A stretch of 32,000 nucleotides of DNA from Caldivirga maquilingensis IC-167 (GTDB lineage: Archaea; Thermoproteota; Thermoprotei; Thermoproteales; Thermocladiaceae): NCBI RefSeq assembly GCF_000018305.1, contig NC_009954.1:1110001-1142000 (forward strand). The letters run 5' to 3'. Position 1 is the first letter of the stretch. Each line of letters begins with the position of its first letter. Made by a program: the position numbers and the translations under genes. This document shows positions 1 through 18,675 of this stretch, in pieces. Under the pieces are notes generated by a model. That model was not told where the DNA came from, ran no database searches, and saw only the letters and a list, made by a program, of their open reading frames with translations.

Positions 1-221
1 AACACCCTATACATGTTATTGTGCACCATAGACAAGACCCCCTTCTCATTGGGATTTATCCTACTTTCAAATAACCATTTAAGAACAAGCCTCTTCGCAT
101 TCATGTACCTTTCAACAAGGAGAGGGAGCCCGAGACCCGATGGGCGAATCTTCACACTAAGTGTCGCGATTCCCCCATCGATGGAACGCACCTCACGGTG
201 CGTTCGGTCTCGAGTCTCCAT
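1..221 (-). CDS. Partial ORF (5' end only, runs off the left edge); hypothetical protein
   Basis: ATG at 221-219 on the minus strand is followed by 73 open codons to the window edge (METRDRTHREVRSIDGGIATLSVKIRPSGLGLPLLVERYMNAKRLVLKWLFESRINPNEKGVLSMVHNNMYRV...). A TATA-like tttttaa (minus strand, + coordinates 244-250) sits 23-29 nt upstream, which fits a leaderless archaeal transcript. The ORF is missing from the supplied track because it has no stop inside the window. It competes with + ORF 13..261 and with an RNA-structure reading of the same bases. Confidence 0.35.
   Translation of the reverse strand, partial: METRDRTHREVRSIDGGIATLSVKIRPSGLGLPLLVERYMNAKRLVLKWLFESRINPNEKGVLSMVHNNMYRV
125..219 (-). 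ncRNA. Candidate structured RNA element: three-way junction with nested helices
   Basis: The pairings are visible by eye. P1 pairs cgagacc 131-137 with ggtctcg 206-212, extended by ggag 125-128 with ctcc 216-219. P2 pairs cgatggg 138-144 with cccatcg 174-180, then gaatc 146-150 with gattc 168-172, then acac 154-157 with gtgt 161-164. P3 is a perfect 9-bp hairpin, gaacgcacc 184-192 with ggtgcgttc 197-205. Its loop reads GUGA (a GNRA tetraloop) on the minus strand. About 36 bp are paired within 95 nt. I do not recognise the family. Confidence 0.3.
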
Positions 222-317
222 AAAGATCTTTACCGCTGCTGGGTTAAAAAGATTGCATTAAACCCACCTTAAAAACAAGACCCTCCACCCACGGTGTTAT
301 AACCATAACCAGTACTC

Positions 318-435
318 AGAGCCGATACTAGGTGTAATCGTATGGATGACGTAAGGTTCTCCTCACTTTATCCCCAGGCTATAATCATTTACAAGTAGAC
401 ATGTTTGCTACTGAATAATCCCTCTTCCTCATGCG
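318..435. repeat. Left copy of a perfect 118-bp direct repeat flanking the MTase/BrxL-like cassette
   Basis: agagccgatactaggtgtaatcg...ccctcttcctcatgcg is identical base for base to 6030-6147. The flanks diverge immediately outside (g436 vs a6148; c317 vs t6029). Stop codons occur in all six frames. It has no tRNA-like features. Confidence 0.95.
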
Positions 436-504
436 GTAGTATCAAGATAACAGTATCCTTTAGGGTGCTGGCGCCAGGGTCTCGATATAATCAGGGTTAA
501 CGAC

Positions 505-609
505 ATGACTAAGTACCCTTACTATGGCTATGAAGGTGATTTCAAGCTTAAAGGATGTAGAGCTCAGATTCTATGCTGTGAAATTTCTGGAGTATCCGAG
601 ATGCTGTGA
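505..609 (+). pseudogene. Decayed, truncated paralog of the small zinc-ribbon gene at 6457..6657
   Basis: It translates as MTKYPYYGYEGDFKLKGCRAQILCCEISGVSEML*, against MVKCPYCGYEGNFRLIKQW...ECPKCHGV in the intact copy. Hand alignment gives 38/51 nt identical over the first 17 codons. Both N-terminal Cys ligands are replaced by Tyr (TGT>TAC, TGT>TAT). There is an internal deletion and an early stop. Confidence 0.6.
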
Positions 610-686
610 AGTCATTAAATTATTACCAGAAGGATAAGGGTTAAGTTTATATTAAATTTCCTTAAAATTAAAATAGTGTCTCAGAT

Positions 687-3600
687 ATGGCTGCTCAACC
701 TCAAATAAGCATTGATGATGTTTTAAACTGTTTTCTACAAGGCATTAGGGAGGCTAATAATGAGGAAGAGTTGAGGATCAGGATATCCAGGTGCATAGAG
801 GATATGATCCTCGAGCCACTCGGCATAACACAGTACGGTGGTCGCTATGAGTACACCCTAGTCTCTGGGGCTAGGGTGGATGCCCTCTACGGACACGTAA
901 TCATAGAATATAAAGCCCCAGGCAGACTCTCAACAAACACCGACATAACCAAGGCCAAGGACCAAGTCATAAACTACATTAAAACCGAGGCCGCCTCAAA
1001 AGCTGAGTGGGATAGGTATCTGGGTATTATAATCAGTGATAGAATAGCCTTCGTGAGGTACTACAAACCGCAGGATACCTGGATCCTAAGGGGCCCGTAT
1101 AACATTACCAGGGAGAGCATTATAAAGATTATTGAGGCCCTGAGGGGGCTAAGGAGGAAGGCGCTCAGTGTGGATAACCTCTTGAGGGACTTCGGCTCCC
1201 AGTCGGAACTTGCTGGGAGAGTTATTAGGGCGTTGTACAGGAGGCTCATTGAGACTGGGAACCCGAGGACTAGGGTGTTGTTTGAGGATTGGATGAGGCT
1301 CTTCAGACAAGCAACAGGTTATAGGCCTGAGGAGCTTGAGGAATTACCCACGTTGGCTCAGGAGTACGGGTTAGCCGATAATGTGAACTTCGATGCATTA
1401 ATATTCGCAATACAAACATACTACGCCTTCATACTAAAGCTCCTCGCCGCGGAGGTTGTTTACCTATACGGCGGTGGTAGGTTTTACATATCCTACATAG
1501 CCGATCTCGATGACGCATACACAAGGGGCAGTGTCAACGCCCTAAGGGATGAGCTTAGGGAGTTGGAAAGCGGTGGCATTTTTAGGCACTTCGGCTATGA
1601 GAATTTCCTAGAGGGTGATTACTTCTCCTGGTACCTGGAGGAGCTTGATGGGGAGCTTGCTGGGGCGCTGGCTGAGGTGATCAGGAGACTCTCGGACTAC
1701 GAGCCGGCAACGCCTCAATTAGAGCCCGAGTACGCTAGGGACCTACTCAAGAGACTTTACCAGGAATTAATGCCCCGCGACATAAGGCATAATCTTGGCG
1801 AGTACTACACGCCTGACTGGCTCGCTGACTTCCTACTCGATGAGGTGGGGCTTAGCCTAGGGAACCTCATGGAGATGGGTAAGGAGGACTCACTGAAGCC
1901 ACTGCAGCAACTGAGGGTTCTGGACCCGGCATGTGGCTCGGGCACCTTCCTAGTGAGGTACATAGCGAGGCTTAGGGCTTATGCCAGGGAGTACTTCCTG
2001 GAGGATGTACTCGTGGACTACGTACTACAGAACGTGGTTGGCTATGACCTAAACCCACTGGCGGTACTCACCGCCAGAACAAACTACCTACTCATGATTG
2101 CGGACTTGCCAAAGAAGGGAACAATAGAGATACCGATTTACATGGCTGACTCATTGATGGTTGAGAGGAGATCCACACTAATGGGTGATGTTTATGCGCT
2201 GAGGACAACGGCTGGGGAGTTCAGGATACCGGCAAACATCATCGAGAAGAACCTACTGCCGGATATACTCCACGAGGTGACTGACGCATTGAGGAACAGG
2301 TACAAGCCGGAGGAGTTCAAAGCAAGACTACAGTACAGATTCAAGGAGTTGGGAGAAAACGAGCTCAGCGTCCTGTTGGATTTCTACAGCACACTCCTAA
2401 AGCTGGAGGAGGAGGGTAAGGACGATGTGTGGGTATCCATAATAAGGAACGCCTTCGCACCAATACTGAGGGGCAAGTTCGACTACATTGTGGGTAACCC
2501 ACCATGGGTTAATTGGGAAAACCTGCCGGAGGACTTCAGGGAGTTGTCCAATGACTTGTGGCAGCACTATGGGCTGGCCGAGATTAGGGGGAAGATGGGG
2601 TTGGGTAAGGTTAAGAGGGACTTGGCGATGCTCTTCATGGCCAGGTGCTTCGACCTATACCTAAAACCCGGCGGTAAGCACGCATTCCTAATGCCATTCA
2701 CAGTATTCAAGACACAGGCTGGTTCAGGGTTCAGGAGGTTCCTAGCCACAAAAACCAGGGTGCACGTTGTACATGACATGGTAACTCTGTACCCATTCGA
2801 GGGGGCCGTGAACAGGGTCTCGGCAATAGTTGTTGAGAAACCCGAGACGGGCAACGCTACGGGGAACAAGGGTGGGGTTAGGCACATCATATGGGTTAAC
2901 AGAACAGGGAAGCCCATACCCACCGATGCGCACTTAGAGGATGTCCTCAAAGTTACGGAGAGGTTCGAGGCCATAATGGCACCCGTAGTGGAGAGGGACC
3001 CGTCAAGCCCCTGGATGCAGGTAACAAGTAAAGTACTACCCTACATTAGGAAGATAACCTCCGGGACCTCACCATACGAGGCACATGCAGGCGTTTATAC
3101 AGCTCTAAACCAGGTATACTTCATACAGATCAAGCAGAGACTCCCAGACGGTAAGCTACTAATCATCAACCCGCCGGAGCCTGGGCAGAAGAAGAGGGTT
3201 AAGCAGGTCGAGGTGACTATAGAGCCTGACCTGGTCTACCCGCTCATTAGGGGTAGGGACGTCAAGAGGTGGTACGTAGACTACAAGGAGAGGTATATCA
3301 TTCTTCCTACAGATGAGCAGGGAAATATGATTAAGCATTATGAAATGAAGATAAAGTACCCCAATACGTATAGATACTTCTATGAGTTCTTCAGGGATCT
3401 AGTGAATAGGGGTGGTGAGCCCTACAAAAGTAAGTTAGAACCTTATAGGAGGTTACCACTTGAGGTGGCGGAAAAAAGCGCACCGCCGTTTTACTGGGTG
3501 TTCAACGTAGAGCCTAGCCTAGTTCCCTACAAGGTAGTGTGGAGTAGAATTGCCGGGGGCATTAGTGGTAAGGCTGTTAGTTTTTCATGTGCTGTAGTAG

Positions 3601-4382
3601 AACCCATAGAGATAAAGGATCTAGGTAAAAAGCCTGTGATACCTGATGATGGAACTATACTAATAGATCTCAAAGATCCGAAGGAGGCCTACTATATTGC
3701 TGGCGTCCTTAATTCAATTATCGTAAGGACAACAATAGCAGCATATACATACGAGTTGAGACAGGAAACGCATATAGTCGATTTTATAAGAATTCCTCGT
3801 TATGATCCTAATAATGAATTGCATGGGAGGATTTCCGAGCTCTCCAGGAGGGCTCACGAGATTGCCAGGTGTATCCACGCCAGTGCCAAGCCCGAGTACT
3901 GTGGGTTCATTAGGGACCCCGAGGGTGGGCTCAGGAAGATTGAGGATGAGCTTGATAGGGCCGTGGCTCAGCTCTACGGCATACCCGAAGATGCCCTGGA
4001 GGAGTTCAGGAAGTTACTGGGTGTGTTGTCTGGCGAGAGCGTTCCAGAAGAGGAAGAGAGTGTTGTGGGGGTTGTTAGGCCCTCGGTGGAGTTTCTCAAG
4101 GTCAATGTTGTTGCTGGGCAGACTGATTACCTGGAGGTTAATATTGTGACTGCGGGGCTTTGTGATAAGGCCGTACTCATTCTTAAGTGGCCCTGGGGCA
4201 CGCAGACGCTGAACCTTGATGATGGTAGGCATAGGATTGAGGTTAAGGTCCCTGAGGGGGTTTATGAGGTTGCGTATAGTTTTAAGTGCTCTGGTTATGA
4301 GTATGATGGTAGTGTTAAGGTAACGGCATCCTCCAAGGTGCCGGAGGGGCCTAGGAGGTCCAGGACTCTTAGACTTGGGTGA
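687..4382 (+). CDS. Single-chain type IIG/IIL-like restriction-modification enzyme (PglX/MmeI-like): N-terminal PD-ExK nuclease motif, gamma-class N6-adenine DNA methyltransferase, TaqI-like specificity domain, extra C-terminal beta-rich domain
   Basis: The ORF is 1231 aa. A nuclease-like motif D65-X8-E74-Y-K76 (RVDALYGHVIIEYKAPG, nt 879-914) is present. The MTase motifs are EYYTPDW (motif X), LDPACGSGTFL (motif I, nt ~1920-1952) and VGNPPW (motif IV, NPPW at nt 2496-2507). AYYIAGVLNS is typical of the Eco57I/TaqI C-terminal specificity domain. An acidic linker (SGESVPEEEES) precedes a ~105-aa beta-strand-patterned tail. Confidence 0.85.
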   Translation: MAAQPQISIDDVLNCFLQGIREANNEEELRIRISRCIEDMILEPLGITQYGGRYEYTLVSGARVDALYGHVIIEYKAPGRLSTNTDITKAKDQVINYIKTEAASKAEWDRYLGIIISDRIAFVRYYKPQDTWILRGPYNITRESIIKIIEALRGLRRKALSVDNLLRDFGSQSELAGRVIRALYRRLIETGNPRTRVLFEDWMRLFRQATGYRPEELEELPTLAQEYGLADNVNFDALIFAIQTYYAFILKLLAAEVVYLYGGGRFYISYIADLDDAYTRGSVNALRDELRELESGGIFRHFGYENFLEGDYFSWYLEELDGELAGALAEVIRRLSDYEPATPQLEPEYARDLLKRLYQELMPRDIRHNLGEYYTPDWLADFLLDEVGLSLGNLMEMGKEDSLKPLQQLRVLDPACGSGTFLVRYIARLRAYAREYFLEDVLVDYVLQNVVGYDLNPLAVLTARTNYLLMIADLPKKGTIEIPIYMADSLMVERRSTLMGDVYALRTTAGEFRIPANIIEKNLLPDILHEVTDALRNRYKPEEFKARLQYRFKELGENELSVLLDFYSTLLKLEEEGKDDVWVSIIRNAFAPILRGKFDYIVGNPPWVNWENLPEDFRELSNDLWQHYGLAEIRGKMGLGKVKRDLAMLFMARCFDLYLKPGGKHAFLMPFTVFKTQAGSGFRRFLATKTRVHVVHDMVTLYPFEGAVNRVSAIVVEKPETGNATGNKGGVRHIIWVNRTGKPIPTDAHLEDVLKVTERFEAIMAPVVERDPSSPWMQVTSKVLPYIRKITSGTSPYEAHAGVYTALNQVYFIQIKQRLPDGKLLIINPPEPGQKKRVKQVEVTIEPDLVYPLIRGRDVKRWYVDYKERYIILPTDEQGNMIKHYEMKIKYPNTYRYFYEFFRDLVNRGGEPYKSKLEPYRRLPLEVAEKSAPPFYWVFNVEPSLVPYKVVWSRIAGGISGKAVSFSCAVVEPIEIKDLGKKPVIPDDGTILIDLKDPKEAYYIAGVLNSIIVRTTIAAYTYELRQETHIVDFIRIPRYDPNNELHGRISELSRRAHEIARCIHASAKPEYCGFIRDPEGGLRKIEDELDRAVAQLYGIPEDALEEFRKLLGVLSGESVPEEEESVVGVVRPSVEFLKVNVVAGQTDYLEVNIVTAGLCDKAVLILKWPWGTQTLNLDDGRHRIEVKVPEGVYEVAYSFKCSGYEYDGSVKVTASSKVPEGPRRSRTLRLG

Positions 4383-5821
4383 TGGTTATGGGTGATCTTT
4401 ATGTTAAGATTAGGAGGGCTTTTGGGGATTATGCTGTGGATAAAAGCCTACTTCATGAGACGGAGATATCTAGGTTGCCGGGTTTTGTTGCTGAGTATCT
4501 CATAACGGAGTTTGCGATGGAGTATCCCAATGATTGGCAGACGAGGCTTAGGGAGTTCATTACACAGCATTATTTTGAGACCAGTGAAAAGGAGTACCTT
4601 AAGCATAGGCTTATTGAGGAGAGGCGCATTAAGATTATAGATGAGTTAAGGGTTTGGGTGGATTTGGAGAGTGGTGAACATAGGGGTGTAATTCAATCCA
4701 TTGGTGAGAGCGACATAAGAGTCCCACCGGATATAGCCAGTAATTATCCCATGACCATGATTACAGGGATGTGGGGTCTCATTGAGCTTGAATACTCACC
4801 TGAAACCGCTAAGAGGGATATTAACGGAGAGCTTATAGAAAATCCAGTCATTGTGACTGATTTCACACCATTCCAGGCACCCACCTCGGATCCCAAGATA
4901 CTTGCTGAGGCCCGAGGTTACTTTACCTTTGAGGAGTGGCTTGATGTTCTCATAAACACCATTGGTTATAATCACAATGCTTACCCGGGTATTAGGAGGA
5001 AGCTTGTCCTCCTCTCAAGGCTCTTACCGCTGGTGGAGGAGAATTTGCACATTGTAGAGTTTGGGCCTAAGGCCACTGGTAAGACTTACGTGTTTAGGAA
5101 TGTGAGTAGGTATACGAGGATTATCGTGGGTGGTATGATAAGCCCAGCAGCCTTGTTCTACAACCTCAGGAATGGTATGCCGGGCGAGATAGCCATTAGG
5201 GATTCTGTGGTATTCGATGAGATATCCAAGGTCAGATTCCCCAACCCTGATGAGATAGTTGCTAAACTCAAGGACTTCATGGAGAGTAGTCAGTATGAGA
5301 GGGGTAAGCAGAGAGTTGCATCTGGTTCTTCTATAGTTATGCTTGGGAATGTAGAGGTTGAGGAGAGGGAGGGGGCTTACGTGCCCGTGGAGGACTTAAC
5401 ATACATACTGCCAAAGCCCATGAGGGACTCAGCCCTAATAGATAGGGTTAGAGGGCTTATACCAGGATGGGAACTCCCTAAAATAGGTATGGTTAAATAT
5501 CATTTGTCCCAAGGTTATGGGATTGCTCTAGATTACTTCTCAGAAGCATTACATACAATGAGGAAGGAGACCTTAGTAGGTGAAGTTAGTAAGCATATAG
5601 AGTTAATGGGAGAGGTGACGATTAGAGATGAGAAGGCGATTAAGAAAATGCTAAGTGCATTCATTAAACTCCTCTTCCCAAACCTAGAATTTGATAAAAG
5701 AGAGTTGGATATAGTCACTGGGCATGTAGTAGAACTAAGACAGAGAATCAGAGATTGGATGCATAAGTTGTCTCCCTCAGAATTTCAAAGAGAGGAATTA
5801 TCATATATTGTGAAAGGATAA
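4379..5821 (+). CDS. BrxL-family AAA+ ATPase (BREX BrxL-like N-terminal and ATPase domains) lacking the Lon-protease-like C-terminal domain
   Basis: The ORF is 480 aa. Its start overlaps the upstream stop (GTGATG; GTG 4379 or ATG 4382 against TGA 4380-4382), implying translational coupling. Walker A is EFGPKATGKT (nt 5063-5086) and Walker B is VVFDEI (DE at nt 5216-5221). The stretch GGMISPAALFYN...KDFMESSQYERGK...SSIVMLGN...DSALIDRVRGLIPGWELPKI...GYGIALDYFSEAL follows the BrxL ATPase (Lon_2-type) pattern as I remember it. The protein ends about 80 aa later, whereas full-length BrxL is about 680 aa. Confidence 0.75.
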   Translation: MMVMGDLYVKIRRAFGDYAVDKSLLHETEISRLPGFVAEYLITEFAMEYPNDWQTRLREFITQHYFETSEKEYLKHRLIEERRIKIIDELRVWVDLESGEHRGVIQSIGESDIRVPPDIASNYPMTMITGMWGLIELEYSPETAKRDINGELIENPVIVTDFTPFQAPTSDPKILAEARGYFTFEEWLDVLINTIGYNHNAYPGIRRKLVLLSRLLPLVEENLHIVEFGPKATGKTYVFRNVSRYTRIIVGGMISPAALFYNLRNGMPGEIAIRDSVVFDEISKVRFPNPDEIVAKLKDFMESSQYERGKQRVASGSSIVMLGNVEVEEREGAYVPVEDLTYILPKPMRDSALIDRVRGLIPGWELPKIGMVKYHLSQGYGIALDYFSEALHTMRKETLVGEVSKHIELMGEVTIRDEKAIKKMLSAFIKLLFPNLEFDKRELDIVTGHVVELRQRIRDWMHKLSPSEFQREELSYIVKG

Positions 5822-6029
5822 AAACTACATGAGAAAGGCCTCAAGGACAACCCTAATGAGGGAGTTGTAAGAATGGCTCCTATTACTTTAAACCAGGTGA
5901 GGTAGGGTGCAAGCCCGTATTCTTTAGTTCCTCAATGTTTTCTCCACTGATTTAGGTAATTGAGGAGTGGCTTAGTTATTGAATCATTATTACTTGATTC
6001 ATTTAGACTGGGGTGTCAGTCCAAGTCTT

Positions 6030-6147
6030 AGAGCCGATACTAGGTGTAATCGTATGGATGACGTAAGGTTCTCCTCACTTTATCCCCAGGCTATAATCAT
6101 TTACAAGTAGACATGTTTGCTACTGAATAATCCCTCTTCCTCATGCG
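6030..6147. repeat. Right copy of the perfect 118-bp direct repeat
   Basis: It is identical to 318-435. The repeat period is 5712 bp, and 5594 bp (436-6029) lie between the two copies. Confidence 0.95.
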
Positions 6148-6456
6148 ACCCCTTCTCCTCACATATATTGATTTTCACGGATACCTCAGTGCCCTATCTT
6201 GTAGGCTCTCTAGCTCTCTTAATCCTCATCTCCATCATCTCCTAGGCATAGTTCCACAACTATTCAACGTGCAGCTTTAGTTCCCTCAAGCTTACCCTAT
6301 TTTCATCTTAATCTCTATGATGAGCTGATGTACATTATTGATATCTGTAATAACTATGTCAGGCACCTTTTCCTAGACTATGCCACTGGACTCCTTCAGA
6401 TACTGCTTAAGTTTCTCTAAAAAGACTATAAACACGGTTTCTCTACTCAAGCAACA

Positions 6457-6657
6457 TCACCTACTCTTAGGTTTCACCCTTATTACGAATTCCGAGACTT
6501 TGTTGGATTGAGTATTTACACCATAGTAATGGTTGAATACTCCATGACATTTTGGGCACTCAAGCTCCTTAACAATGTAGAACCTGAACCTCCACTGCTT
6601 TATAAGCCTGAAATTACCTTCATAACCACAGTACGGACACTTAACCATACTTCCCAC
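6457..6657 (-). CDS. Small zinc-ribbon protein (two CxxC pairs)
   Basis: The 66-aa product contains CPYC...CPKC (MGSMVKCPYCGYEGNFRLIKQWRFRFYIVKELECPKCHGVF...). The true start may be M4 (6648), because that is where the decayed paralog at 505 aligns. Specific family unknown. Confidence 0.6.
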   Translation of the reverse strand: MGSMVKCPYCGYEGNFRLIKQWRFRFYIVKELECPKCHGVFNHYYGVNTQSNKVSEFVIRVKPKSR

Positions 6658-7029
6658 CTCTCCTCCTAATTACTGCCATAGGCATATTCTTTTATATATT
6701 TAAGCTGTATGCTAAATTTAAACCTTCCTACACCTATAGGTTAATTAAATTAACATTAATTATGCTTCTCACCATGTCTTCAAGCCTGCCTCCTTAATCT
6801 CAAGTCTCTTCTTAGGGGTTGATTTATTGAAACTGAGTAGTGATTAATCCTCCTGGTTCATATGGAGGTAAACCCTCCCTCAGTGCACCTGGATTTATTC
6901 CCCATATTCCACAACCTAAACACCCACATCACACCATCCACCATATGGTTTATTTCAGCTTTACAAAAGAGGCTTACTGGATAAAATAAACGATAGGTTC
7001 TTAAGATACTCCTGAATGTTTACTATCTT

Positions 7030-7281
7030 ATGATTGGAACACAAGATTCATTAGTAGAATATGTGGTATTAGTAATGGTGACAGTAATAATGGGAATAAT
7101 AATTGGCTACTGGCTACCATATTTTATAATTTTGCTTTCTAATAATGGAATAATCACCCTTATTGAAGCACTAATACTTGAATTAACTGGAGCAGCACTA
7201 TTGGCGATGGCGGCATTGGCTGCTGGGATTCTGATTGGGTCTTGGATTCAGTCCAGGATAGAACAGTCTTCACCATGGTAA
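7030..7281 (+). CDS. Small hydrophobic membrane protein (about 3 predicted TM segments), hypothetical
   Basis: The 83-aa ORF is strongly hydrophobic (VVLVMVTVIMGIIIGYWLPYFIILL, LTGAALLAMAALAAGILIGSW). It lies in an AT-rich accessory block. No recognisable motif. Confidence 0.4.
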   Translation: MIGTQDSLVEYVVLVMVTVIMGIIIGYWLPYFIILLSNNGIITLIEALILELTGAALLAMAALAAGILIGSWIQSRIEQSSPW

Positions 7282-7497
7282 GTCCATTCATTGTAGGCTA
7301 ATGATTTAAATTTAAAACATGAATTCTTTATTGAGATAAACAACCTATTTTCCTCAATTAATTAAGACTCAGTATTATAGGACTCTATTGATCCGAGTAA
7401 AGAGTAAGCAATGCTCCAAAATAGCGAATATAACCTATCCTAGAAAAACGGAGAAATATAGAGAAAGGTTTATAAAGAATGCTTAAGCCCTTATACT

Positions 7498-7758
7498 ATG
7501 GATAGTGAAATAAAGGATATATTATTAATTATTGTAGGAGTTGCAATAATTGCGATAGTGCTTATTGCATCATATAAGTTAGCTAACTTAGTTGAGGTTT
7601 CCATAACTTGGTTTTCTAATATCACTGGAATAAATATTCCTGCTAATGTAAACTTCCTGAATCCCGCAATATCAACATTTACATTAGCTGGAGAAGTATT
7701 TATAGTAGTTGGTTCCATAATAGTTGGTTCCGGTATTATACGTATTTACTCCTCCTAG
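7498..7758 (+). CDS. Small membrane protein (2 predicted TM segments), hypothetical
   Basis: The 86-aa product has hydrophobic segments ILLIIVGVAIIAIVLIASY and AGEVFIVVGSIIVGSGII. An antisense ORF at 7491..7718 overlaps it, so the strand choice is uncertain. Confidence 0.35.
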   Translation: MDSEIKDILLIIVGVAIIAIVLIASYKLANLVEVSITWFSNITGINIPANVNFLNPAISTFTLAGEVFIVVGSIIVGSGIIRIYSS

Positions 7759-7947
7759 TGCCCTCTGGGTTGCTACAGAGGAACCATTTACTGTAAGTTC
7801 ATGATTAACATTAATCTAAATTTAAGAACCATCTTCATTAAAGGAGGTTTTCAATGAATTAAGAGTAGTGTTAGAATTCTGTATATTATCTAGCCATAAT
7901 TAGGATGGATGAATATGTGACTACTCAATGTGTTTCATTCTTATTCA

Positions 7948-8688
7948 TTAATTTGAATCCTTTCCCATACTTCTCATGATAAAAGCACCAATTCTAATTT
8001 CTTTAGAAGTAGCCCCATAAAGGGAGTAATATCTGATTGTTGAGTATTGAACCCAAGCGTAGTCCCCGCTTCCACTTCTCTGGTAACTGTAGCCGCCTGG
8101 GCCATTGATGCCAACGTTGATGCTCCACGGGATGCCTAATGAATCATTAGTAATCATTATGGTCACTGAACCCTCCCCACTACTTGATGCCTGTGTCTCA
8201 CCAGTGCCGTTACCGTATTCAGTTATTACCCATCTTAACATTACCCAGTTACACGTATTTGATGCCTGTGTTGGGCATACTTTAACAGATATGCCGTTGT
8301 AATGCCCCTTAATGATCATTAATAATGCGTGCCCGGGCTCCAGGAGTAGTCTACCGTTGATTACTATTGGTTCACTATGGTTAAGTATAGTGTAGGTTAA
8401 GTAATCCATGATTGAGTTCACGCCTATTAATACGCCTGAATTATTGGTTAAAGCGTACATGCCGTCTAAGTAGGCGTTAACCCTACCCAAGTTACCGAGG
8501 ATTATGAGTGTTGAGTTACTCATTGCGAAGCCGTAGGCCTCGAGCACAATGTTGGCTAACTCCTCATGTGCAATTAAGTAACGGGAGTAGTTACTGTAGC
8601 TCACTGATGCGTAGGTTAATATTATGGTGACTGCAGCTATTGAGGCGACTAGTATTATCGCCTCCTCAACGGCCTCCATTGGTTGCAT
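7948..8688 (-). CDS. Membrane-anchored or secreted protein with an N-terminal hydrophobic helix and a sequon-rich ectodomain, hypothetical
   Basis: The 246-aa product starts MQPMEAVEEAIILVASIAAVTIILTY, which is reminiscent of archaeal pilin or archaellum accessory N-terminal helices. No clear [KR]-[GA] class III cleavage motif is present. It has six N-x-S/T sequons (NYS, NST, NNS, NHS, NGT, NDS) and a Gly/Ser-rich C-terminal half. Confidence 0.5.
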   Translation of the reverse strand: MQPMEAVEEAIILVASIAAVTIILTYASVSYSNYSRYLIAHEELANIVLEAYGFAMSNSTLIILGNLGRVNAYLDGMYALTNNSGVLIGVNSIMDYLTYTILNHSEPIVINGRLLLEPGHALLMIIKGHYNGISVKVCPTQASNTCNWVMLRWVITEYGNGTGETQASSSGEGSVTIMITNDSLGIPWSINVGINGPGGYSYQRSGSGDYAWVQYSTIRYYSLYGATSKEIRIGAFIMRSMGKDSN

Positions 8689-9567: not shown

Positions 9568-10138
9568 AGCTGTACTCACTCATTAATGAGTGGTAGTAGT
9601 TGTATATTCTGTAGAAGTTATCCTTAAGTTCACTGGAGTCCACGAAGTTATCCTTACTAACCTTAATACCATTAACCCTCACGTTCTCCATGCTTAAAAG
9701 CATCGCCTTAATACCCTTACCATCCCTATGCCACGCACTGTACCCGCCTATTGTGCCATCCCTGTTAATAACCCTATGGCATGGGATAAGGACGGGCATA
9801 GGGTTCTTTGAGGCGAATAGGCCTATTAGGCGTGGGGTCATGTTGAGTAATTCAGCTAAGTCACTGTAGGAGGCTACGAAACCCCTCGGTATGGCTAGTA
9901 TTGCAAGCATAACTAGGCCTAAATTATCATTAGGTATCTTAGCCATCCTAACCACAGTTAATGGGTCTGGTTCAACGTAATCAGTAATGTTGATGTTACT
10001 GAACTTGCGTAGAAATGAACTGATTCTAATTATCGTGGTCTTATCCACCAATCCCTTGAAATCCCTGTGAACCAAGAGCCCTAGGTCACTCTTACCCAGC
10101 CTCCATAGTTGATCGCTATTCTTCACGAACTGATTCAA
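9548..10138 (-). CDS. ogt: Methylated-DNA--protein-cysteine methyltransferase (O6-alkylguanine-DNA alkyltransferase)
   Basis: The active-site motif IPCHRVI and the following DGTIGGY are present. The length is 196 aa. It converges on the DUF62 gene with a 20-nt overlap. Confidence 0.85.
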   Translation of the reverse strand: MNQFVKNSDQLWRLGKSDLGLLVHRDFKGLVDKTTIIRISSFLRKFSNINITDYVEPDPLTVVRMAKIPNDNLGLVMLAILAIPRGFVASYSDLAELLNMTPRLIGLFASKNPMPVLIPCHRVINRDGTIGGYSAWHRDGKGIKAMLLSMENVRVNGIKVSKDNFVDSSELKDNFYRIYNYYHSLMSEYSSSEQSE

Positions 10139-10224
10139 TTTTTAAACCTTAAAAACCGTTACCTATGCTGATACCATGGTAATTACTCCAAAGTATGGTT
10201 TATAAACAGTAATGATGCGTAGTA

Positions 10225-10515
10225 ATGGTGGAGGAATGCAGGGTTAAGGTTAAGTTCGCCGGTGTACTTGTTACATTTGCCGGTTCGGAAACCATTGATG
10301 TGGGTGTGAAATGCGGTTCAACGCTTAGGGATTTGCTTAGGCAATTAGCCAGTGTGAACCCTAGGTTGAAGAGGAGGCTTATTGAGGATGATGGACTCTG
10401 GCCAGGTGTCTACGTAGCCATTAATGACACTGACATTAGGCTGCTTAATGGACTCGACACTAGGTTGAATAACGGTGACGTAGTACTCTTCCTATCCTAT
10501 ATTCATGGAGGTTAA
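10225..10515 (+). CDS. MoaD/ThiS-family ubiquitin-like small protein (SAMP-like), C-terminal Gly-Gly
   Basis: The 96-aa product ends ...LSYIHGG* directly before the stop. Its size and beta-grasp-like pattern fit MoaD/ThiS/SAMP. Confidence 0.7.
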   Translation: MVEECRVKVKFAGVLVTFAGSETIDVGVKCGSTLRDLLRQLASVNPRLKRRLIEDDGLWPGVYVAINDTDIRLLNGLDTRLNNGDVVLFLSYIHGG

Positions 10516-10545
10516 TTTATTTAAACCCAATGCCGGTTAATCACG

Positions 10546-11040
10546 GTGATTGAACCAATTAGGCTTAAGTTAGGTGATGAGGAGGCTCAATTCATAGTCT
10601 ACACAATGCTGCTTGAGGAGCCGCTTAGTAATGAGGCTTTAAGCATGCTCCTAAGCAATACTGAGGCTGACGTGTTCATTATCATTGATGGTTCAACATC
10701 ACCCACGGTGAATGATCTACTGTACTACCTTTATTTAGCCCACAGGAATGTTAATGATGGTGTTTCAATAGCCAGGGATGCTAACGTTGAGGCTATGCTT
10801 TACGTGCAATGCACGACGCAGATTAATGAGGCTAAGAGGATTAGTGACCCATTGGGTAAGAGGCTTGTAACCGTGGCAGCCTTATCCATCGGGAGGGGTG
10901 TGAGGGTGAATCCACCCCTCGGTGACTTCTTCATTGGTTCAGTGAGTAGGCTTAGTAGGGGTGGTTGCGGTAGAGGTAAGGTTATTAGGATGATTATGGG
11001 GAGGATTAGTACTAGGCGTCTAATAACTAATGATAGTTAA
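10546..11040 (+). CDS. cgi121: Cgi121-like protein (KEOPS complex subunit), tentative
   Basis: The 164-aa ORF has a GTG start. The segment IARDANVEAMLYVQCTTQINEAKRI matches the Cgi121 core pattern as I recall it from M. jannaschii (IAKSFWMEILVRASGQRQIHEAIKI). This is motif memory only. Confidence 0.5.
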   Translation: MIEPIRLKLGDEEAQFIVYTMLLEEPLSNEALSMLLSNTEADVFIIIDGSTSPTVNDLLYYLYLAHRNVNDGVSIARDANVEAMLYVQCTTQINEAKRISDPLGKRLVTVAALSIGRGVRVNPPLGDFFIGSVSRLSRGGCGRGKVIRMIMGRISTRRLITNDS

Positions 11041-11065
11041 GCGTTTAAGCGCTGTTAAAGGGCCT

Positions 11066-11124
11066 TAAGTGTGATGAACCCAGACGGCCCTGAGCCTTGA
11101 TGAGCTATGCCAAGACTGAATGAT
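11066..11124 (+). ncRNA. C/D box sRNA (2'-O-methylation guide)
   Basis: The architecture is canonical for archaea. C box gtgatga is at 11071-11077, followed by a 12-nt guide acccagacggcc (11078-11089). D' ctga is at 11090-11093, then a 3-nt spacer. C' ttgatga is at 11097-11103, followed by a 12-nt guide gctatgccaaga (11104-11115). D ctga is at 11116-11119. The C box starts 31 nt downstream of the upstream stop. Confidence 0.75.
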
Positions 11125-11314
11125 GCTTTTAAGGTAATGTTTAAGGAGTTAAGTAATATTTAACATATATAAAGATGCAAACTACATTGATCTATAAATT
11201 ATTTTTAACTGAATCTATTTTATTATTGGTTTCTATTCAAAATATATTGCTAATAGTCAAGCGGTTTACTTAGAAAGATTTAAAAATATCAAGGGGATTA
11301 TTTAAGCGAGGTTT

Positions 11315-14138
<2,824 letters not shown>

Positions 14139-14144
14139 ACTAAT

Positions 14145-14169
14145 TTTTAATTTAAGCCTTAAATTAAAA
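14145..14169. terminator. AT-rich perfect 12-bp inverted repeat between convergent genes (possible bidirectional terminator)
   Basis: ttttaatttaag (14145-14156), c, then cttaaattaaaa (14158-14169). A T5 run is adjacent. It lies between OFOR-beta (+) and the UPF0173 gene (-). Confidence 0.35.
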
Positions 14170-14179
14170 GCTCCTTATT

Positions 14180-14863
14180 TCACTTAATAGGCAGGTTAAG
14201 TACATCTCCAGGCTTCATCACGTAAACCCTCACGTGGGGGGCTAGGGACTCGGTTAGGTTCCTGAATTCCTCAGGATCCTGCCTAATCTGGGGGAAGGTG
14301 TTGTAGTGCATTGGCACCACAGCCCTGGGGTTTATTAGGGATACTGCGTAGGCCGCTTCCCGTGGACTCATTGTGAAGTAACCGCCTATGGGTAGTAGGG
14401 CCACGTCAGGCTTATATAATCTGCCTATCAACTCCATGTCACTGAATAAACCCGTGTCACCGGCGTGATAAATAACGGCCTCAGGGGACTTAATTACGAA
14501 GCCTACTGGTGAACCATGGGTTGAGCTGTGTAGTGCTGGAGTCATGTAAACCTCTATCTCGTTAGTTAATTTAACGGGTCCACCAATGTTCATACCTATG
14601 GTGTTCTTAACCCCCTCCTTCTCGGCTAGGTAAACGGCTAGCTCGAATATTGATACAACCGTGGCGTTAGTCTTATTGGCTATTTGAACCGCCTCACCCA
14701 AGTGATCTGAGTGATCATGGGTCACCAGTATGAAGTCTACCTTACTTAACTCACCTAGGGTTACTGGGGAATTGGGGTTTGATATCCATGGGTCAATAAG
14801 TATTCTCTTACCCATTAATTCCACTTCAAAGGCCGCATGCCCAAGCCACTTCAAGTAACCCAT
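14180..14863 (-). CDS. UPF0173-family metal-dependent hydrolase (metallo-beta-lactamase fold)
   Basis: The 227-aa product has the N-terminus LKWLGHAAFEVEL..ILIDPW and the metal motif THDHSDH. Confidence 0.8.
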   Translation of the reverse strand: MGYLKWLGHAAFEVELMGKRILIDPWISNPNSPVTLGELSKVDFILVTHDHSDHLGEAVQIANKTNATVVSIFELAVYLAEKEGVKNTIGMNIGGPVKLTNEIEVYMTPALHSSTHGSPVGFVIKSPEAVIYHAGDTGLFSDMELIGRLYKPDVALLPIGGYFTMSPREAAYAVSLINPRAVVPMHYNTFPQIRQDPEEFRNLTESLAPHVRVYVMKPGDVLNLPIK

Positions 14864-14874
14864 GATCCTAGAGG

Positions 14875-14888
14875 CTTAACGCATCTTA
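14875..14888. repeat. Proximal copy of a 14-nt direct repeat cttaacgcatctta in the promoter region of the hydrolase gene
   Basis: It is identical to 14964-14977. On the minus strand it reads taagatgcgttaag, 12-25 nt upstream of ATG 14863 and just downstream of a tttttaa TATA-like box. Confidence 0.6.
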
Positions 14889-14963
14889 AAAAGTTAACCC
14901 CTGAGGAATATTAGGGCATTTACCTAACAGTGCCCTGGTTTTAATCATAAGTAATTAACTCAA

Positions 14964-14977
14964 CTTAACGCATCTTA
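14964..14977. repeat. Distal copy of the 14-nt direct repeat cttaacgcatctta
   Basis: It is identical to 14875-14888, 89 bp away, and is also preceded on the minus strand by an AT-rich taatttatg. Confidence 0.6.
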
Positions 14978-15053
14978 CATAAATTAGTCCTCGAGGGTTT
15001 ACTAAGTCTAGTGAGGATGAGTACGATATTTAAGGTGAATCATGGGTCTTAGA

Positions 15054-16127
15054 TCATTCACCGTATATTAACCGATACAGTTCATTACTCAGCTTTAAGC
15101 CTGAACCCGTTAAAATAACTACAGTTGTGCCACTTAGGTTCACTTCCTTAAGGGCCTTAAAGACAACTGCGCTTGTTGGCTCAATTATGAACCCTAACCT
15201 AATACCCTCCCTTAACCCCTCAATAACCCCCTGATCATTAACAACCACCACGTCACCTCCAGTGTCCCGTATCGCGTCAATTATCTGAGTTAACCTAGGT
15301 GGCTGGGGCACTATTATGCCGTCGGGTAAGGTTGCCTTAACACCCATGGGTGTGTTGTGAAGCATACTGTAAGCCCACTCGTAGCCTGATGCCTCAACGG
15401 CTATTATCCTAGGTGTGTCTTTAATAAGCTTCAATTCCTCAGCCTCCTTGAAACCTAAGTATAGGCCTAGGGTTAAGGTACCGTTACCTAGGGGTGCAAC
15501 AACATTATCAATGTTCCCTAATTCTAATGCTAGTTCATAAGCTATTAACTTAACGCCATGTATGAAGAAGGGGTTCCATGAATGACCAACGTAAACCCCC
15601 TCTGTGAAGCTCATGGCAAGTGATGATGCATCAGCCCTAGTTGCAGCCTCAACCACATTAGCGCCTAGGAGCCTCATAAGTCTCTTCTTAGCCTCAGGGG
15701 CCGTCTTAGGGACGTAAATCCTAGCCCTAACCCCCTTAACCGCGGAGTATGCTGCTAGGGATAGTCCAGCATTACCGCTTGAATCCTCAACCACAGTGAC
15801 GTCATTACGTAGTACTGATAGGGCAAGACTCCACCCCCTATCCTTAAATGAACCAGTGGGGTTAAGGTACTCAAGCTTAAAGTAGTAATCACCCCTCCTA
15901 ACCAGTGGGGTTAAACCTTCACCAAGGCTTAACGGCTCCTTAACAGGTAGAATCCTCGTTAATTCACTTCTACTAAGCTCCCTAGGTCTCCTTAAATCAT
16001 AATTCACATTCAACGGTGACCCGCATCTAGGGCACTTGATAAGCCAGGTATTAGCCTCGGTTGTGAAGCCGCATTTAGGGCACTTGTACGTTACCTCCCC
16101 GCTCATGTTAGTTAAGTTAAGCACCAT
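15054..16127 (-). CDS. thrC: Threonine synthase-like PLP-dependent enzyme with an N-terminal zinc ribbon
   Basis: The 357-aa product has CPKC...CPRC at the N-terminus and the PLP-lysine motif NPTGSFKDRG. Confidence 0.65.
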   Translation of the reverse strand: MVLNLTNMSGEVTYKCPKCGFTTEANTWLIKCPRCGSPLNVNYDLRRPRELSRSELTRILPVKEPLSLGEGLTPLVRRGDYYFKLEYLNPTGSFKDRGWSLALSVLRNDVTVVEDSSGNAGLSLAAYSAVKGVRARIYVPKTAPEAKKRLMRLLGANVVEAATRADASSLAMSFTEGVYVGHSWNPFFIHGVKLIAYELALELGNIDNVVAPLGNGTLTLGLYLGFKEAEELKLIKDTPRIIAVEASGYEWAYSMLHNTPMGVKATLPDGIIVPQPPRLTQIIDAIRDTGGDVVVVNDQGVIEGLREGIRLGFIIEPTSAVVFKALKEVNLSGTTVVILTGSGLKLSNELYRLIYGE

Positions 16128-16229
16128 GAATAAGGAACTGTGCTCAGCTTTAAAACTAATTCACGGTTAGGAATACTTCTAGGTATTATTGAAATACTTG
16201 CTTAGGGCCTTTTTTAAATTAAGCCGTGT

Positions 16230-16460
16230 TTAAACCCTCCTTAATCCCCTAGCATCAATGCTGGCTTCACCCAGCCTCTTATAGCCTGTTTCATCATACG
16301 TGTAGACCTTGGCATCATCCTCATCCTGCACTAGTTTATGCTTCCCACTGCAGAACGGGTACTTATCACTCAGCCCACACATGCATATGGCTACTGTTTC
16401 CCCGCTGGGAAGCTTATATACGTATGGTTTCTTAGCCGTATGTATAACTAGCCTAGCCAT
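16230..16460 (-). CDS. CDGSH-type iron-sulfur domain protein
   Basis: The 76-aa product contains CMCGLSDKYPFCSGKH. This fits C-x-C-x2-S-x3-P-x-C-x-G-x-H, a variant of the CDGSH signature. Confidence 0.7.
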   Translation of the reverse strand: MARLVIHTAKKPYVYKLPSGETVAICMCGLSDKYPFCSGKHKLVQDEDDAKVYTYDETGYKRLGEASIDARGLRRV

Positions 16461-16661
16461 GGCGCATTTGATTTATGGTATTTTAAAAACGTGTCGCGTC
16501 TGTTAATTCATAATGTTTGAATGATTTATGTATTTAAGGACTACCTGTGAACCATAATTATATTAATATATAGAGTATGTTATTTCACAATTTGCATTAA
16601 TGTTAAATCTAAGTAGTTATAGGGGGTAATGCTTATAAGGAATTAAGAATAGCTCCTTTTT

Positions 16662-16874
16662 ATGTCTAGTAATGTTGGCTTAGGTAGAAGGGTTACTGCC
16701 GCAATACTCTTCATAGTGCCGTGGGTTTTCTACCTAGTGTTACCAGTGTATAATAGGGTTAATCCTGAGGTTGGTGGTGTACCATTCTTCTACTGGTTTC
16801 AAACCCTTTGGTTAATTATAGCCGCTGTATTAAGCCTAATAGGAGTGTATTTGATTTATGGTGGTGAGTCATGA
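16662..16874 (+). CDS. Small two-TM membrane protein coupled to the solute symporter (DUF3311-like)
   Basis: The 70-aa product has two hydrophobic helices. A 4-nt ATGA overlap links it to the downstream symporter gene. Confidence 0.6.
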   Translation: MSSNVGLGRRVTAAILFIVPWVFYLVLPVYNRVNPEVGGVPFFYWFQTLWLIIAAVLSLIGVYLIYGGES

Positions 16875-18433: not shown

Positions 18434-18539
18434 GATAACTGACTACGTCTTAATTGTTAAATTAATATGCTCTTAAATGAGCCTTAGCTTAAATATGAAT
18501 TAATAATCATAGTTTATAAGGAGGCTTAATATAGGGGAT

Positions 18540-18595
18540 GCAGTGATGAGGATTATTAAGTTGTGACCAGTGATCGGGAACCCACGTACTGAATT
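18540..18595 (+). ncRNA. Probable C/D box sRNA with degenerate internal boxes
   Basis: C box gtgatga is at 18543-18549. It is followed by a 12/13-nt spacer ggattattaagt(t). A D'-like gtga is at 18563-18566 and a C'-like gtgatcg at 18570-18576. A 12-nt guide ggaacccacgta (18577-18588) precedes D box ctga at 18589-18592. It is intergenic between the symporter and sufB. Confidence 0.5.
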
Positions 18596-18675
18596 CATTA
18601 AACTTTTCTTAATAATAGTTTATATTTATATAAAGCTTTATAAAGTCATGAGGTTAATGAAGCATGTGGTGAGGA

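What the first reader, a model, noticed from the sequence alone, without database searches (positions are those of the whole stretch)
318..6147. Perfect 118-bp direct repeats bracket a 5.6-kb two-gene cassette with no integrase or transposase inside
Positions 318-435 and 6030-6147 are identical at all 118 positions, and identity stops abruptly on both sides. The repeats enclose only the MTase-nuclease gene, the BrxL-like gene, a decayed zinc-ribbon fragment and about 200 bp of non-coding DNA. The repeat is not a tRNA, has stops in all six frames and lacks terminal inverted repeats. That excludes an SSV-type split integrase, and it is longer than typical archaeal att cores. Nearby pseudogene remnants are only 59-75% identical to their parents, so perfect identity here implies a recent event or ongoing gene conversion. 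Recombination between the copies would release a 5712-bp circle and leave a single-repeat scar. This would be a simple on/off or mobilisation route for a defence cassette.
Basis: seen in the sequence. Interest (0 to 1): 0.65.

Follow-up and report, generated by a model that had tools for sequence, protein, structure and literature searches.

The report
Restriction-defence cassette bracketed by 118-bp repeats
A horizontally acquired archaeal defence cassette (restriction-methylase plus BrxL-like ATPase) is flanked by two perfect 118-bp direct repeats, which most likely formed when it inserted, as already described for bacterial restriction systems, and which could let it loop out or amplify; neither has been shown.

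Summary
Positions 318-435 and 6030-6147 are identical at all 118 bases, the edges are sharp, and the spacing is 5712 bp. Two independent short-read assemblies break exactly at the repeat edges.

The repeats enclose a three-gene module that is conserved across hyperthermophilic archaea: a small Zn-ribbon gene (here a pseudogene), a Type IIG restriction-methylase and a short BrxL-like ATPase. The gene bodies are 87-92% identical in DNA to a decayed copy in Vulcanisaeta thermophila, which indicates recent horizontal transfer. The cassette lies in a strain-specific island that ends near position 8035.

No integrase, transposase, tRNA or terminal inverted repeats were found. The repeat was found nowhere else. 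One homologous cassette, in a Ca. Caldarchaeum MAG, is bracketed by a different, host-derived 66-bp repeat (the 3' end of topoisomerase VI B). At least twelve others are not bracketed.

The best fit is the known phenomenon of restriction-modification units flanked by long direct repeats, called "insertion with long target duplication" (Kobayashi group). That phenomenon has not been documented in archaea. The decisive evidence is missing: no empty site, circular junction or deletion allele could be retrieved. The excision or on/off idea is therefore plausible but unproven. This is a new member of a known kind, of moderate interest.

The parts
318..435 (.). Left copy of the 118-bp direct repeat (R)
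   Evidence: Identical to 6030-6147. It has stops in six frames and no inverted termini, no RNA-family match and no fold signal.
6030..6147 (.). Right copy of the 118-bp direct repeat (R)
   Evidence: Logan contig L168 ends exactly 30 nt into it. Logan contig L001 ends exactly at its last base.
436..504 (.). Inner left end of the cassette, non-coding
   Evidence: It has no similarity to the right flank or to other cassette loci. GC skew of 436-686 is positive, like the rest of the cassette.
505..640 (+). Decayed copy of the cassette's canonical first gene (about 65-aa Zn-ribbon protein): Cys to Tyr changes and a frameshift
   Evidence: Positions 510-573 are 77% identical to 6643-6578 on the opposite strand. 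The translation is shown. Intact homologues lie directly upstream of the Type IIG gene in at least 12 other loci.
687..4382 (+). Type IIG restriction endonuclease-methyltransferase fusion (1231 aa), apparently intact
   Evidence: PADLOC REase_MTase_IIG scores 1285 bits over the full length. Pfam hits are Eco57I, N6_Mtase and MmeI_Mtase. The D65/E74/K76, DPxCGSGTF and NPPW motifs are invariant in the 28-sequence alignment A1.
4379..5821 (+). BrxL-like AAA+ ATPase (480 aa) that ends before the C-terminal third of the long BrxL models
   Evidence: Pfam BrxL_N plus BrxL_ATPase, 372 bits. It matches only positions 5-473 of a 680-position PADLOC BrxL model, but matches the 482-position models nearly in full.
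5822..6029 (.). Inner right end of the cassette, non-coding (208 nt)
   Evidence: It has no similarity to the left flank or to other loci. GC skew is positive.
6457..6657 (-). Intact Zn-ribbon gene homologous to the cassette's first gene, lying outside the right repeat in inverted orientation
   Evidence: It is 54-67% identical in protein to the Zn-ribbon genes that directly precede Type IIG in L113, L087, L004, L086, L094, L109 and L111. The closest database homologues are 70-73% identical.
1..317 (.). Left flank. It has no convincing gene and contains a strongly structured element at about 125-220
   Evidence: Six-frame translation is. Predicted fold z is -5.5 and -6.4 on the two strands. 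GC skew is negative, as in the right flank.
6148..6456 (.). Right flank next to the repeat, non-coding and C-rich on the + strand
   Evidence: GC skew is -0.39. It has no homologue in other cassette loci and no Type IIG or BrxL remnant.
8033..8045 (.). Right boundary of the strain-specific island that holds the cassette. Synteny with other Caldivirga species stops here, inside a gene that is truncated in the window
   Evidence: blastn of L165-L167 against the window ends at 8033-8045. The relatives' proteins continue past residue 215-218, where the window protein diverges.

Best explanation
The 118-bp repeat is a junction duplication left by insertion of a horizontally acquired, self-contained restriction/defence cassette into a variable chromosomal island. 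The cassette is a Zn-ribbon pseudogene, a Type IIG restriction-methylase and a BrxL-like ATPase. The host is an archaeon, by inference Caldivirga maquilingensis.

Before insertion the locus would have read left flank - one R - right flank. After insertion, R is present on both sides of 5594 bp of foreign DNA. No recombinase is encoded in cis. The insertion would therefore have been made in one of two ways:
- by the still unexplained process that Kobayashi's group called "insertion with long target duplication" of restriction-modification units, or
- by a single homologous crossover of a circular copy that carried one R.

The two perfect copies are now substrates for host homologous recombination or replication slippage. 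That could delete the cassette (a 5712-bp circle plus a one-R scar) or amplify it in tandem.

Shown: the repeat, its sharp edges, the cassette content, the horizontal transfer, the absence of mobility genes, and a second cassette with a different host-derived flanking repeat.

Inferred: that R pre-existed as a single chromosomal copy, the insertion mechanism, and any excision or amplification.
For: - The repeat is perfect and sharply bounded, with no residual similarity beyond it.
- It meets three formal criteria used by Furuta et al. 2010 (PMC2853133). R and M functions are both inside. The insert is under 20 kb. The duplication is over 30 bp. There are no mobility genes inside.
- The cassette is foreign and recently exchanged: 87-92% nucleotide identity to Vulcanisaeta thermophila, against 85-87% for housekeeping DNA within the genus. 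It sits in an island that relatives lack.
- L005 (Ca. Caldarchaeum MAG) has the homologous cassette flanked by a 66-bp, 95% identical repeat. That repeat is the 3' end of the host topoisomerase VI B gene, and an orphan copy lies on the far side. Furuta et al. describe the same pattern of repeats spanning a stop codon.
- The two flanking repeats are unrelated in sequence, as expected for target-derived duplications and not for a conserved element-borne att site.
- GC skew of R (-0.12) goes with the flanks (-0.25 and -0.39), not with the cassette's non-coding ends (+0.22 and +0.14). This is weak evidence at 118 nt.
- In SRR253096 the contig runs from the cassette into R without a branch. That argues against many other genomic copies of R.
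Against: - No empty site was found. The left flank beyond the window start could not be fetched, and contigs of related Caldivirga break before reaching the locus.
- At least 12 homologous cassette contexts with usable flanks have no repeat directly flanking the cassette. Repeat bracketing is not a regular property of this cassette family.
- The high-identity stretch shared with V. thermophila begins 25 nt inside the Type IIG gene. The R-bounded unit is therefore not shown to be what transfers.
- The in-cassette Zn-ribbon gene is badly decayed while R is perfect. Either the gene decayed before insertion or the repeats are being homogenised.
- An intact Zn-ribbon homologue lies just outside the right repeat. 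This hints at a more complex history, such as an earlier cassette or a rearrangement, that a single clean insertion does not explain.
Confidence: 0.5

Rival explanations
1. R is attL/attR of a site-specific integrative element. Its integrase would be encoded elsewhere (for example just left of the window, or on a helper element) or would have been lost. Excision would then need that recombinase, not general recombination.
For: - Direct repeats flanking foreign DNA are the classic signature of site-specific integration.
- Furuta et al. list this as one of three classes of repeat-flanked restriction-modification units.
- Only 317 bp of left flank are visible, so a neighbouring integrase cannot be excluded.
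- In L005 the duplication covers the 3' end of a host gene, and the gene's reading frame continues for 14 further codons into cassette-side DNA. Integrative elements often do this.
Against: - There is no integrase in the cassette or in the 26 kb to its right.
- There is no tRNA at this or any of 12 homologous loci scanned.
- No integrase or transposase was seen among the neighbours that were examined: Pfam scans of ten ORFs at L113, L104, L004 and L120, and the precomputed Pfam labels at L084 and the Pyrobaculum contigs.
- The flanking repeats of the two bracketed cassettes are unrelated.
- From general knowledge, 118 bp is long for an archaeal att core.
Confidence: 0.2
2. R is a pre-existing repeated sequence (a dispersed element, or a local duplication made for other reasons), and the cassette merely lies between two copies. 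Furuta et al. call this "chance insertion between repeated sequences". The repeats would then say nothing about how the cassette arrived.
For: - The locus has a complicated history: a decayed Zn-ribbon gene inside the cassette, an intact inverted one outside, an AT-rich stretch, and a truncated neighbouring gene.
- The full source genome could not be searched for further copies.
Against: - There are only two copies in 32 kb.
- A 24-mer from R has no exact match in GTDB representative genomes, JGI metagenomes or IMG/VR. There is no blastn match in the phage or plasmid collections.
- R has no inverted termini and no coding or RNA signal.
- The SRR253096 graph shows no extra branches entering R.
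- The copies are perfectly identical with razor-sharp edges, and each lies within about 70-210 nt of the ends of the foreign gene block.
Confidence: 0.15
3. The arrangement is an assembly artefact. A free 5.7-kb circular episome, or a collapsed repeat, was wrongly threaded into the chromosome.
For: Logan contig SRR253096_53 is exactly 5712 + 30 nt long, and its first 30 nt equal its last 30 nt. That is the form a circular molecule takes in a k=31 graph.
Against: - The contig starts exactly at the repeat's edge. That is expected if separate cassette and repeat unitigs were merged after a short left-flank tip was clipped.
- The independent contig SRR9435971_236 stops 30 nt into R, which shows a second path entering R, namely the left flank.
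- The source contig is 2.08 Mb long.
- None of the other fetched loci has a terminal overlap, so no other cassette contig looks circular.
Confidence: 0.04

Closest known systems
Restriction-modification units inserted with long target duplication (Nobusato et al. 2000, Gene 259:99; Furuta, Abe and Kobayashi 2010, NAR 38:2428, PMC2853133)
   Same: - A compact restriction-modification unit with no transposase or integrase is bracketed by long direct repeats (46-423 bp in their tables; 118 bp here).
- The repeats are unique in the genome.
- The insert has atypical ancestry.
- Type IIG and IIS enzymes feature prominently.
- The repeats often span a host gene's stop codon, as in L005.
- The authors propose that the repeats allow amplification and release.
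   Different: - All their validated cases are bacterial. They state that no archaeal system survived their empty-site screen.
- Here the empty site is not available.
- The unit also carries a BrxL-like ATPase and a Zn-ribbon gene.
- Most members of this cassette family lack flanking repeats.
Archaeal integrative elements with tRNA-targeting tyrosine integrases (SSV type and pNOB8 type)
   Same: Foreign DNA is flanked by direct repeats, with the potential to excise as a circle.
   Different: There is no integrase (whole or split) and no tRNA target. The repeat is longer than usual att cores. Related cassettes do not share an att sequence.
BREX (bacteriophage exclusion) systems
   Same: - The cassette contains a BrxL-family AAA+ ATPase (31-36% identical to annotated BrxL proteins).
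- It also contains a large gamma-class N6-adenine methyltransferase related to PglX (PADLOC PglX 4.5e-14).
   Different: - No PglZ, BrxC, BrxA or BrxB was found among the window ORFs scanned.
- The methyltransferase is a full Type IIG enzyme with an N-terminal PD-ExK nuclease.
- The BrxL ends before the C-terminal third of the long BrxL models.
- The conserved partner is a roughly 65-aa Zn-ribbon protein.
Tandem amplification of restriction-modification genes through flanking direct repeats (work cited as reference 84 in PMC2853133)
   Same: Long direct repeats bracketing a restriction-modification unit are the substrate for unequal crossing-over. The 5712+30-nt cyclic contig would fit a tandem or circular form.
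   Different: No read-level evidence for amplification is available here. The contig shape has a simpler explanation.

Membership tests
[quoted passage not shown] 2010) | Both restriction and modification functions lie inside the inserted segment | tested here: met
   A single-chain Type IIG enzyme carries the PD-ExK (D65, E74, K76), SAM-binding and NPPW motifs.
[quoted passage not shown] 2010) | Insert shorter than 20 kb, with no other mobile-element genes | tested here: met
   There are 5594 bp between the repeats. The ORFs are a Zn-ribbon pseudogene, the Type IIG gene and the BrxL-like gene only.
[quoted passage not shown] 2010) | Flanking direct duplication longer than 30 bp | tested here: met
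   118/118 identical.
[quoted passage not shown] 2010) | A related genome has an empty site with a single copy of the repeat and matching flanks | tested here: inconclusive
   - The repeat 24-mer is absent from three public collections.
- Contigs of related Caldivirga end before the locus.
- The left flank could not be extended.
Site-specific integrative element (att-flanked) | Integrase or recombinase gene in or next to the element | tested here: not met
   None is present between the repeats or in the 26 kb to the right. Only 317 bp of left flank could be examined.
Site-specific integrative element (att-flanked) | Integration into a tRNA or other conserved target, with a shared att among related elements | tested here: not met
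   No tRNA is present. The flanking repeat in L005 is an unrelated sequence.
Transposon, composite transposon or MITE | Terminal inverted repeats, a transposase, and multiple dispersed copies | tested here: not met
   There are no inverted termini on R or on the cassette, no transposase, and only two copies in the window and none elsewhere.
Type IIG restriction-modification enzyme | Single polypeptide with a nuclease domain, a gamma-class N6-adenine methyltransferase and a C-terminal target-recognition region | tested here: met
   It matches a PADLOC REase_MTase_IIG model over its full length at 1285 bits, with Pfam Eco57I and MmeI_Mtase hits. Enzyme activity was not tested.
BREX system | PglZ phosphatase plus BrxC ATPase together with PglX and BrxL | tested here: not met
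   No PglZ or BrxC domain appears in any window ORF scanned or in homologous loci.

The most novel reading that the evidence does not exclude
The Zn-ribbon - Type IIG - short BrxL module is an autonomous, recombinase-free mobile defence unit in archaea. It would insert by creating long duplications of host sequence, possibly through breaks made by its own nuclease and DNA handling by the BrxL-like ring ATPase. It would then leave as a 5.7-kb circle or amplify through those repeats. This would be the first archaeal case, and an experimentally tractable one, of the unexplained "long target duplication" route of restriction-system mobility.
Probability: 0.12. Interest if true: 0.75.

Novelty: new member of a known kind. 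Interest (0 to 1): 0.4.

Why it matters
If the empty site and a circular or deleted form were found, this would extend a poorly understood mode of restriction-system mobility, insertion with long target duplication, from bacteria to hyperthermophilic archaea. It would also give a clean two-gene test case for how defence cassettes move between defence islands without their own recombinase.

Separately, the conserved Zn-ribbon / Type IIG / short-BrxL operon is widespread in hot-spring archaea and is exchanged between genera. It is a candidate minimal BREX-like or restriction-modification hybrid that I did not find described in the papers searched.

Tried and rejected
- Searched for further copies of R or an empty site. 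An exact 24-mer scan of GTDB genomes, IMG/VR and JGI metagenomes gave 0 hits each. blastn against phages and plasmids gave none. The source genome itself is evidently not searchable.
- Tried to extend the left flank and recover junction contigs through exact-protein look-ups of small flank ORFs. All failed.
- Looked for an empty site through right-flank homologues. Contigs of related Caldivirga stop inside the neighbouring gene.
- Tested R as an RNA gene, tRNA, or att overlapping a tRNA. Rejected.
- Tested R or the flanks as decayed Type IIG or BrxL sequence. tblastn and a family HMM gave only insignificant hits. One was a tempting 7-of-15 residue match of R to the PD-ExK motif, at -6.8 bits and E = 12. 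Rejected as chance.
- Tested whether R is the core of a longer decayed duplication. Rejected.
- Asked whether the cassette is a free circular episome in metagenomes. None of the other fetched loci has a terminal overlap.
- Asked whether the 5742-nt cyclic Logan contig proves a circle. Rejected as proof. The same shape arises if a short left-flank tip is clipped, and a second run shows the expected branch at the start of R.
- Looked for sequence shared between R and the borders of homologous cassettes. None.


Full report
OBSERVATION

The repeat is real. Window 318-435 and 6030-6147 are identical at all 118 positions, 5712 bp apart. Immediately outside, identity collapses. Only two further bases match on the left, after one mismatch. 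Local alignments of the next 100 or 300 nt on either side score no better than shuffled sequence (z between -0.75 and 1.2). This is therefore a single, sharply bounded duplication and not the homogenised core of an older, longer repeat. About 5e-63 such repeats are expected by chance in 32 kb.

The repeat (R) has stops in all six frames and no terminal inverted repeats. It contains no tRNA, even with introns allowed, and matches no Rfam family. Its predicted fold is no more stable than shuffles.

INDEPENDENT ASSEMBLIES

Two Logan assemblies of public sequencing runs carry this DNA without a single mismatch.

- Contig SRR9435971_236 equals window 3857-6059 and stops exactly 30 nt into the right repeat. 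That is where a k=31 de Bruijn graph must branch if two different sequences enter R.
- Contig SRR253096_53 equals window 406-6147. It is 5742 nt long, which is 5712 + 30, and its first 30 nt equal its last 30 nt.

The second contig looks like a circle, but I do not read it as proof of one. The same contig results if the short left-flank unitig was clipped as a tip and the cassette and repeat unitigs were then merged. It does show that no other long sequence enters R in that genome, which argues against R being a multi-copy dispersed element.

WHAT IS ENCLOSED

- 687-4382 encodes a 1231-aa Type IIG restriction-methylase. It matches a PADLOC REase_MTase_IIG model over its full length at 1285 bits, with Pfam Eco57I, N6_Mtase and MmeI_Mtase hits. 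The nuclease motif (D65, E74, K76), the SAM-binding motif and NPPW are invariant across 28 homologues.
- 4379-5821 encodes a 480-aa BrxL-like ATPase with BrxL_N and BrxL_ATPase domains. It matches only the first 473 positions of a 680-position PADLOC BrxL model.
- About 505-640 is a decayed Zn-ribbon gene.

It is in fact the canonical first gene of the module. An intact gene of about 65 aa from this family lies directly upstream of, and on the same strand as, the Type IIG gene in at least 12 other loci. The unit is therefore a conserved three-gene operon: Zn-ribbon, Type IIG, short BrxL.

Type IIG homologues at 56-78% identity come from Thermofilaceae, Zestosphaera, Nanopusillaceae, Archaeoglobaceae, Sulfolobales, Desulfurococcus, Pyrobaculum and Korarchaeota, among others. 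The BrxL-like gene follows the Type IIG gene in 22 of the fetched loci, and also in the Pyrobaculum contigs fetched later. The bacterial homologues at 33-37% identity lack the BrxL partner.

No PglZ or BrxC is present, so this is not a canonical BREX system.

THE CASSETTE IS FOREIGN AND RECENTLY EXCHANGED

Cassette positions 712-3301 and 3887-4579 are 87% and 92% identical in DNA to a decayed copy in Vulcanisaeta thermophila, a different genus. In that copy the Type IIG gene is truncated and BrxL is fragmented. For comparison, the housekeeping block to the right of the cassette is only 85-87% identical to other Caldivirga species.

The segment 3302-3886, in the C-terminal region of the enzyme where the target-recognition domain is expected, is not shared. 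This resembles the recognition-domain swapping known for Type IIG genes.

Homology with V. thermophila begins 25 nt inside the Type IIG gene. It excludes R and the cassette's non-coding ends. Gene-body exchange is thus demonstrated, but movement of the repeat-bounded unit is not.

WIDER CONTEXT

Synteny with other Caldivirga contigs stops at window 8033-8045, inside a gene that is longer in the relatives and truncated here. Everything to the left of that point is strain-specific: an AT-rich stretch, an intact inverted Zn-ribbon gene, the cassette and the visible left flank. The left boundary of this island lies beyond the window.

The rest of the window holds ordinary chromosomal genes, including pyruvate-ferredoxin oxidoreductase, SufBD and Mre11/Rad50. 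The source contig is 2,077,567 bp. From memory this is the size of the Caldivirga maquilingensis IC-167 genome.

ARE HOMOLOGOUS CASSETTES BRACKETED?

I compared up to 3 kb upstream and downstream of 20 cassette loci that had at least some flank on both sides. I also ran a whole-locus self-comparison on one of eight Pyrobaculum contigs that share one context.

- Only L005, a Ca. Caldarchaeum MAG, has repeats directly flanking the cassette. They are 66 bp long, 95% identical and 5476 bp apart. That repeat is the 3' end of the host topoisomerase VI B gene. The gene runs through the right copy. An orphan copy of its last codons lies on the far side of the cassette, next to a leuA-like gene.
- L085 has a 122-bp, 88% identical repeat about 2 kb away on each side. 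Its meaning is unclear.
- At least 12 contexts with 500 nt or more of flank on both sides have none.
- The repeats of L005 and of the window are unrelated. R has no similarity to any other cassette locus.
- No tRNA lies in any of the 12 cassette loci scanned.
- The neighbours that were examined are defence-island genes: Piwi, PLD nuclease, Cas4-like, EVE, a second methyltransferase and a DEAD/Cas3-like helicase. No integrase or transposase was among them.

COMPARISON WITH WHAT IS KNOWN

Furuta, Abe and Kobayashi (PMC2853133) showed that restriction-modification units are flanked by direct repeats more often than other genes. They sorted such cases into three classes: site-specific recombination, insertion with long target duplication, and chance insertion between repeats.

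Their criteria for the second class were that R and M functions both lie inside, that the insert is under 20 kb with no other mobile element, and that the duplication exceeds 30 bp. All three are met here. Their fourth requirement, an empty site in a related genome, could not be tested.

They note that such repeats often span a host gene's stop codon, as in L005. They also note that repeat-flanked units can amplify, and that no archaeal case survived their screen. They leave the mechanism of the duplication open, suggesting only that it involves DNA double-strand breakage.

MOST LIKELY EXPLANATION (confidence about 0.5)

R was a single-copy chromosomal sequence. The cassette inserted there and R ended up on both sides. 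This happened either by the long-target-duplication process or by a single homologous crossover of a circular copy carrying R.

Weak internal support comes from GC skew. R (-0.12) resembles the flanks (-0.25 and -0.39), not the cassette's non-coding ends (+0.22 and +0.14).

The perfect copies can now recombine to delete or amplify the cassette. From general knowledge, direct repeats of this length support pop-out recombination in crenarchaeal genetics. No excision product has been seen here.

RIVALS

- Att sites of an element whose integrase lies outside the window or was lost: 0.2.
- Pre-existing repeats unrelated to the insertion: 0.15.
- Assembly artefact or free episome: 0.04.

UNEXPLAINED

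- The in-cassette Zn-ribbon gene is badly decayed (Cys to Tyr changes and a frameshift), while an intact homologue lies 310 nt outside the right repeat on the opposite strand. That outside copy is 54-67% identical in protein to the Zn-ribbon genes that directly precede Type IIG in seven other loci. It may supply the function in trans, or it may be the relic of an earlier cassette. No Type IIG or BrxL remnant accompanies it.
- The decay of the inner gene contrasts with the perfection of R. Either decay preceded insertion or the repeats are being homogenised.

VERDICT

The arrangement is a new, archaeal, BrxL-carrying member of a known kind and not a new kind of element. The key claim, excision or mobilisation through the repeats, remains untested. 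Interest is 0.4.

Noticed in passing
window 125-220: A strongly structured Y-shaped element lies about 100 nt left of the left repeat. Its minimum free energy is -58.8 kcal/mol on the + strand and -66.6 on the - strand, with z of -5.5 and -6.4 against shuffles. It is not a tRNA and matches no Rfam family. It may be an unannotated small RNA, or a cause of the short-read coverage break inferred for the left flank.
   Followed up: partly
window 505-5821; L004, L085-L092, L094, L102, L109, L111, L113, L119, L169-L176: There is a conserved three-gene operon: a roughly 65-aa Zn-ribbon protein, a Type IIG restriction-methylase, and a 470-480-aa BrxL-like ATPase that ends before the C-terminal third of long BrxL models. 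It is spread across many hyperthermophilic archaeal lineages, without PglZ or BrxC, and usually sits in defence islands. I found no description of this combination in the paper search.
   Followed up: partly
window 6457-6657 (-) versus 505-640 (+): An intact Zn-ribbon gene of the cassette family sits outside the right repeat in inverted orientation, while the canonical in-cassette copy is a pseudogene. The two are 77% identical over 66 nt. The reason is unexplained.
   Followed up: partly
window 8033-8045 and 7000-8035: Synteny with other Caldivirga species ends inside the 246-aa gene (7948-8688, - strand), which is longer in the relatives. To the left is an AT-rich stretch (31-34% GC) with small membrane-protein-like ORFs. 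This marks the right edge of a larger strain-specific island.
   Followed up: partly
L084 (Vulcanisaeta thermophila BCLI01000001.1) 10001-19622: This is a decayed copy of the cassette, 87-92% identical in DNA to the window. The Type IIG gene is truncated. BrxL is split into fragments about 5 kb apart with unrelated genes between them. The stretch corresponding to window 3302-3886 is replaced.
   Followed up: partly
L005 (Ca. Caldarchaeum subterraneum MAG) 9682-9747 and 15158-15223: A 66-bp direct repeat, the 3' end of the topoisomerase VI B gene, brackets a homologous cassette. The host gene's reading frame passes through the right copy and ends 43 nt further on, in cassette-side sequence.
   Followed up: yes
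L085 77-198 and 9765-9884: A 122-bp, 88% identical direct repeat lies near both ends of a 10.2-kb metagenome contig that carries the cassette. It is non-coding, and the neighbouring ORFs have no Pfam match.
   Followed up: partly
L001 (Logan SRR253096_53): This contig is exactly 5712 + 30 nt long with identical 30-nt ends. It would fit a circular or tandemly amplified form of the cassette in that culture, but it is also explained by tip clipping in the assembler.
   Followed up: partly
window 22500-24000: Several families of short, imperfect AGG/GAG-rich direct repeats (D1, D2, D4 and D5) fall mostly inside the Rad50-like coiled-coil gene (21998-24412). They look like codon-level repetition in a coiled coil, not a separate feature.
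   Followed up: no
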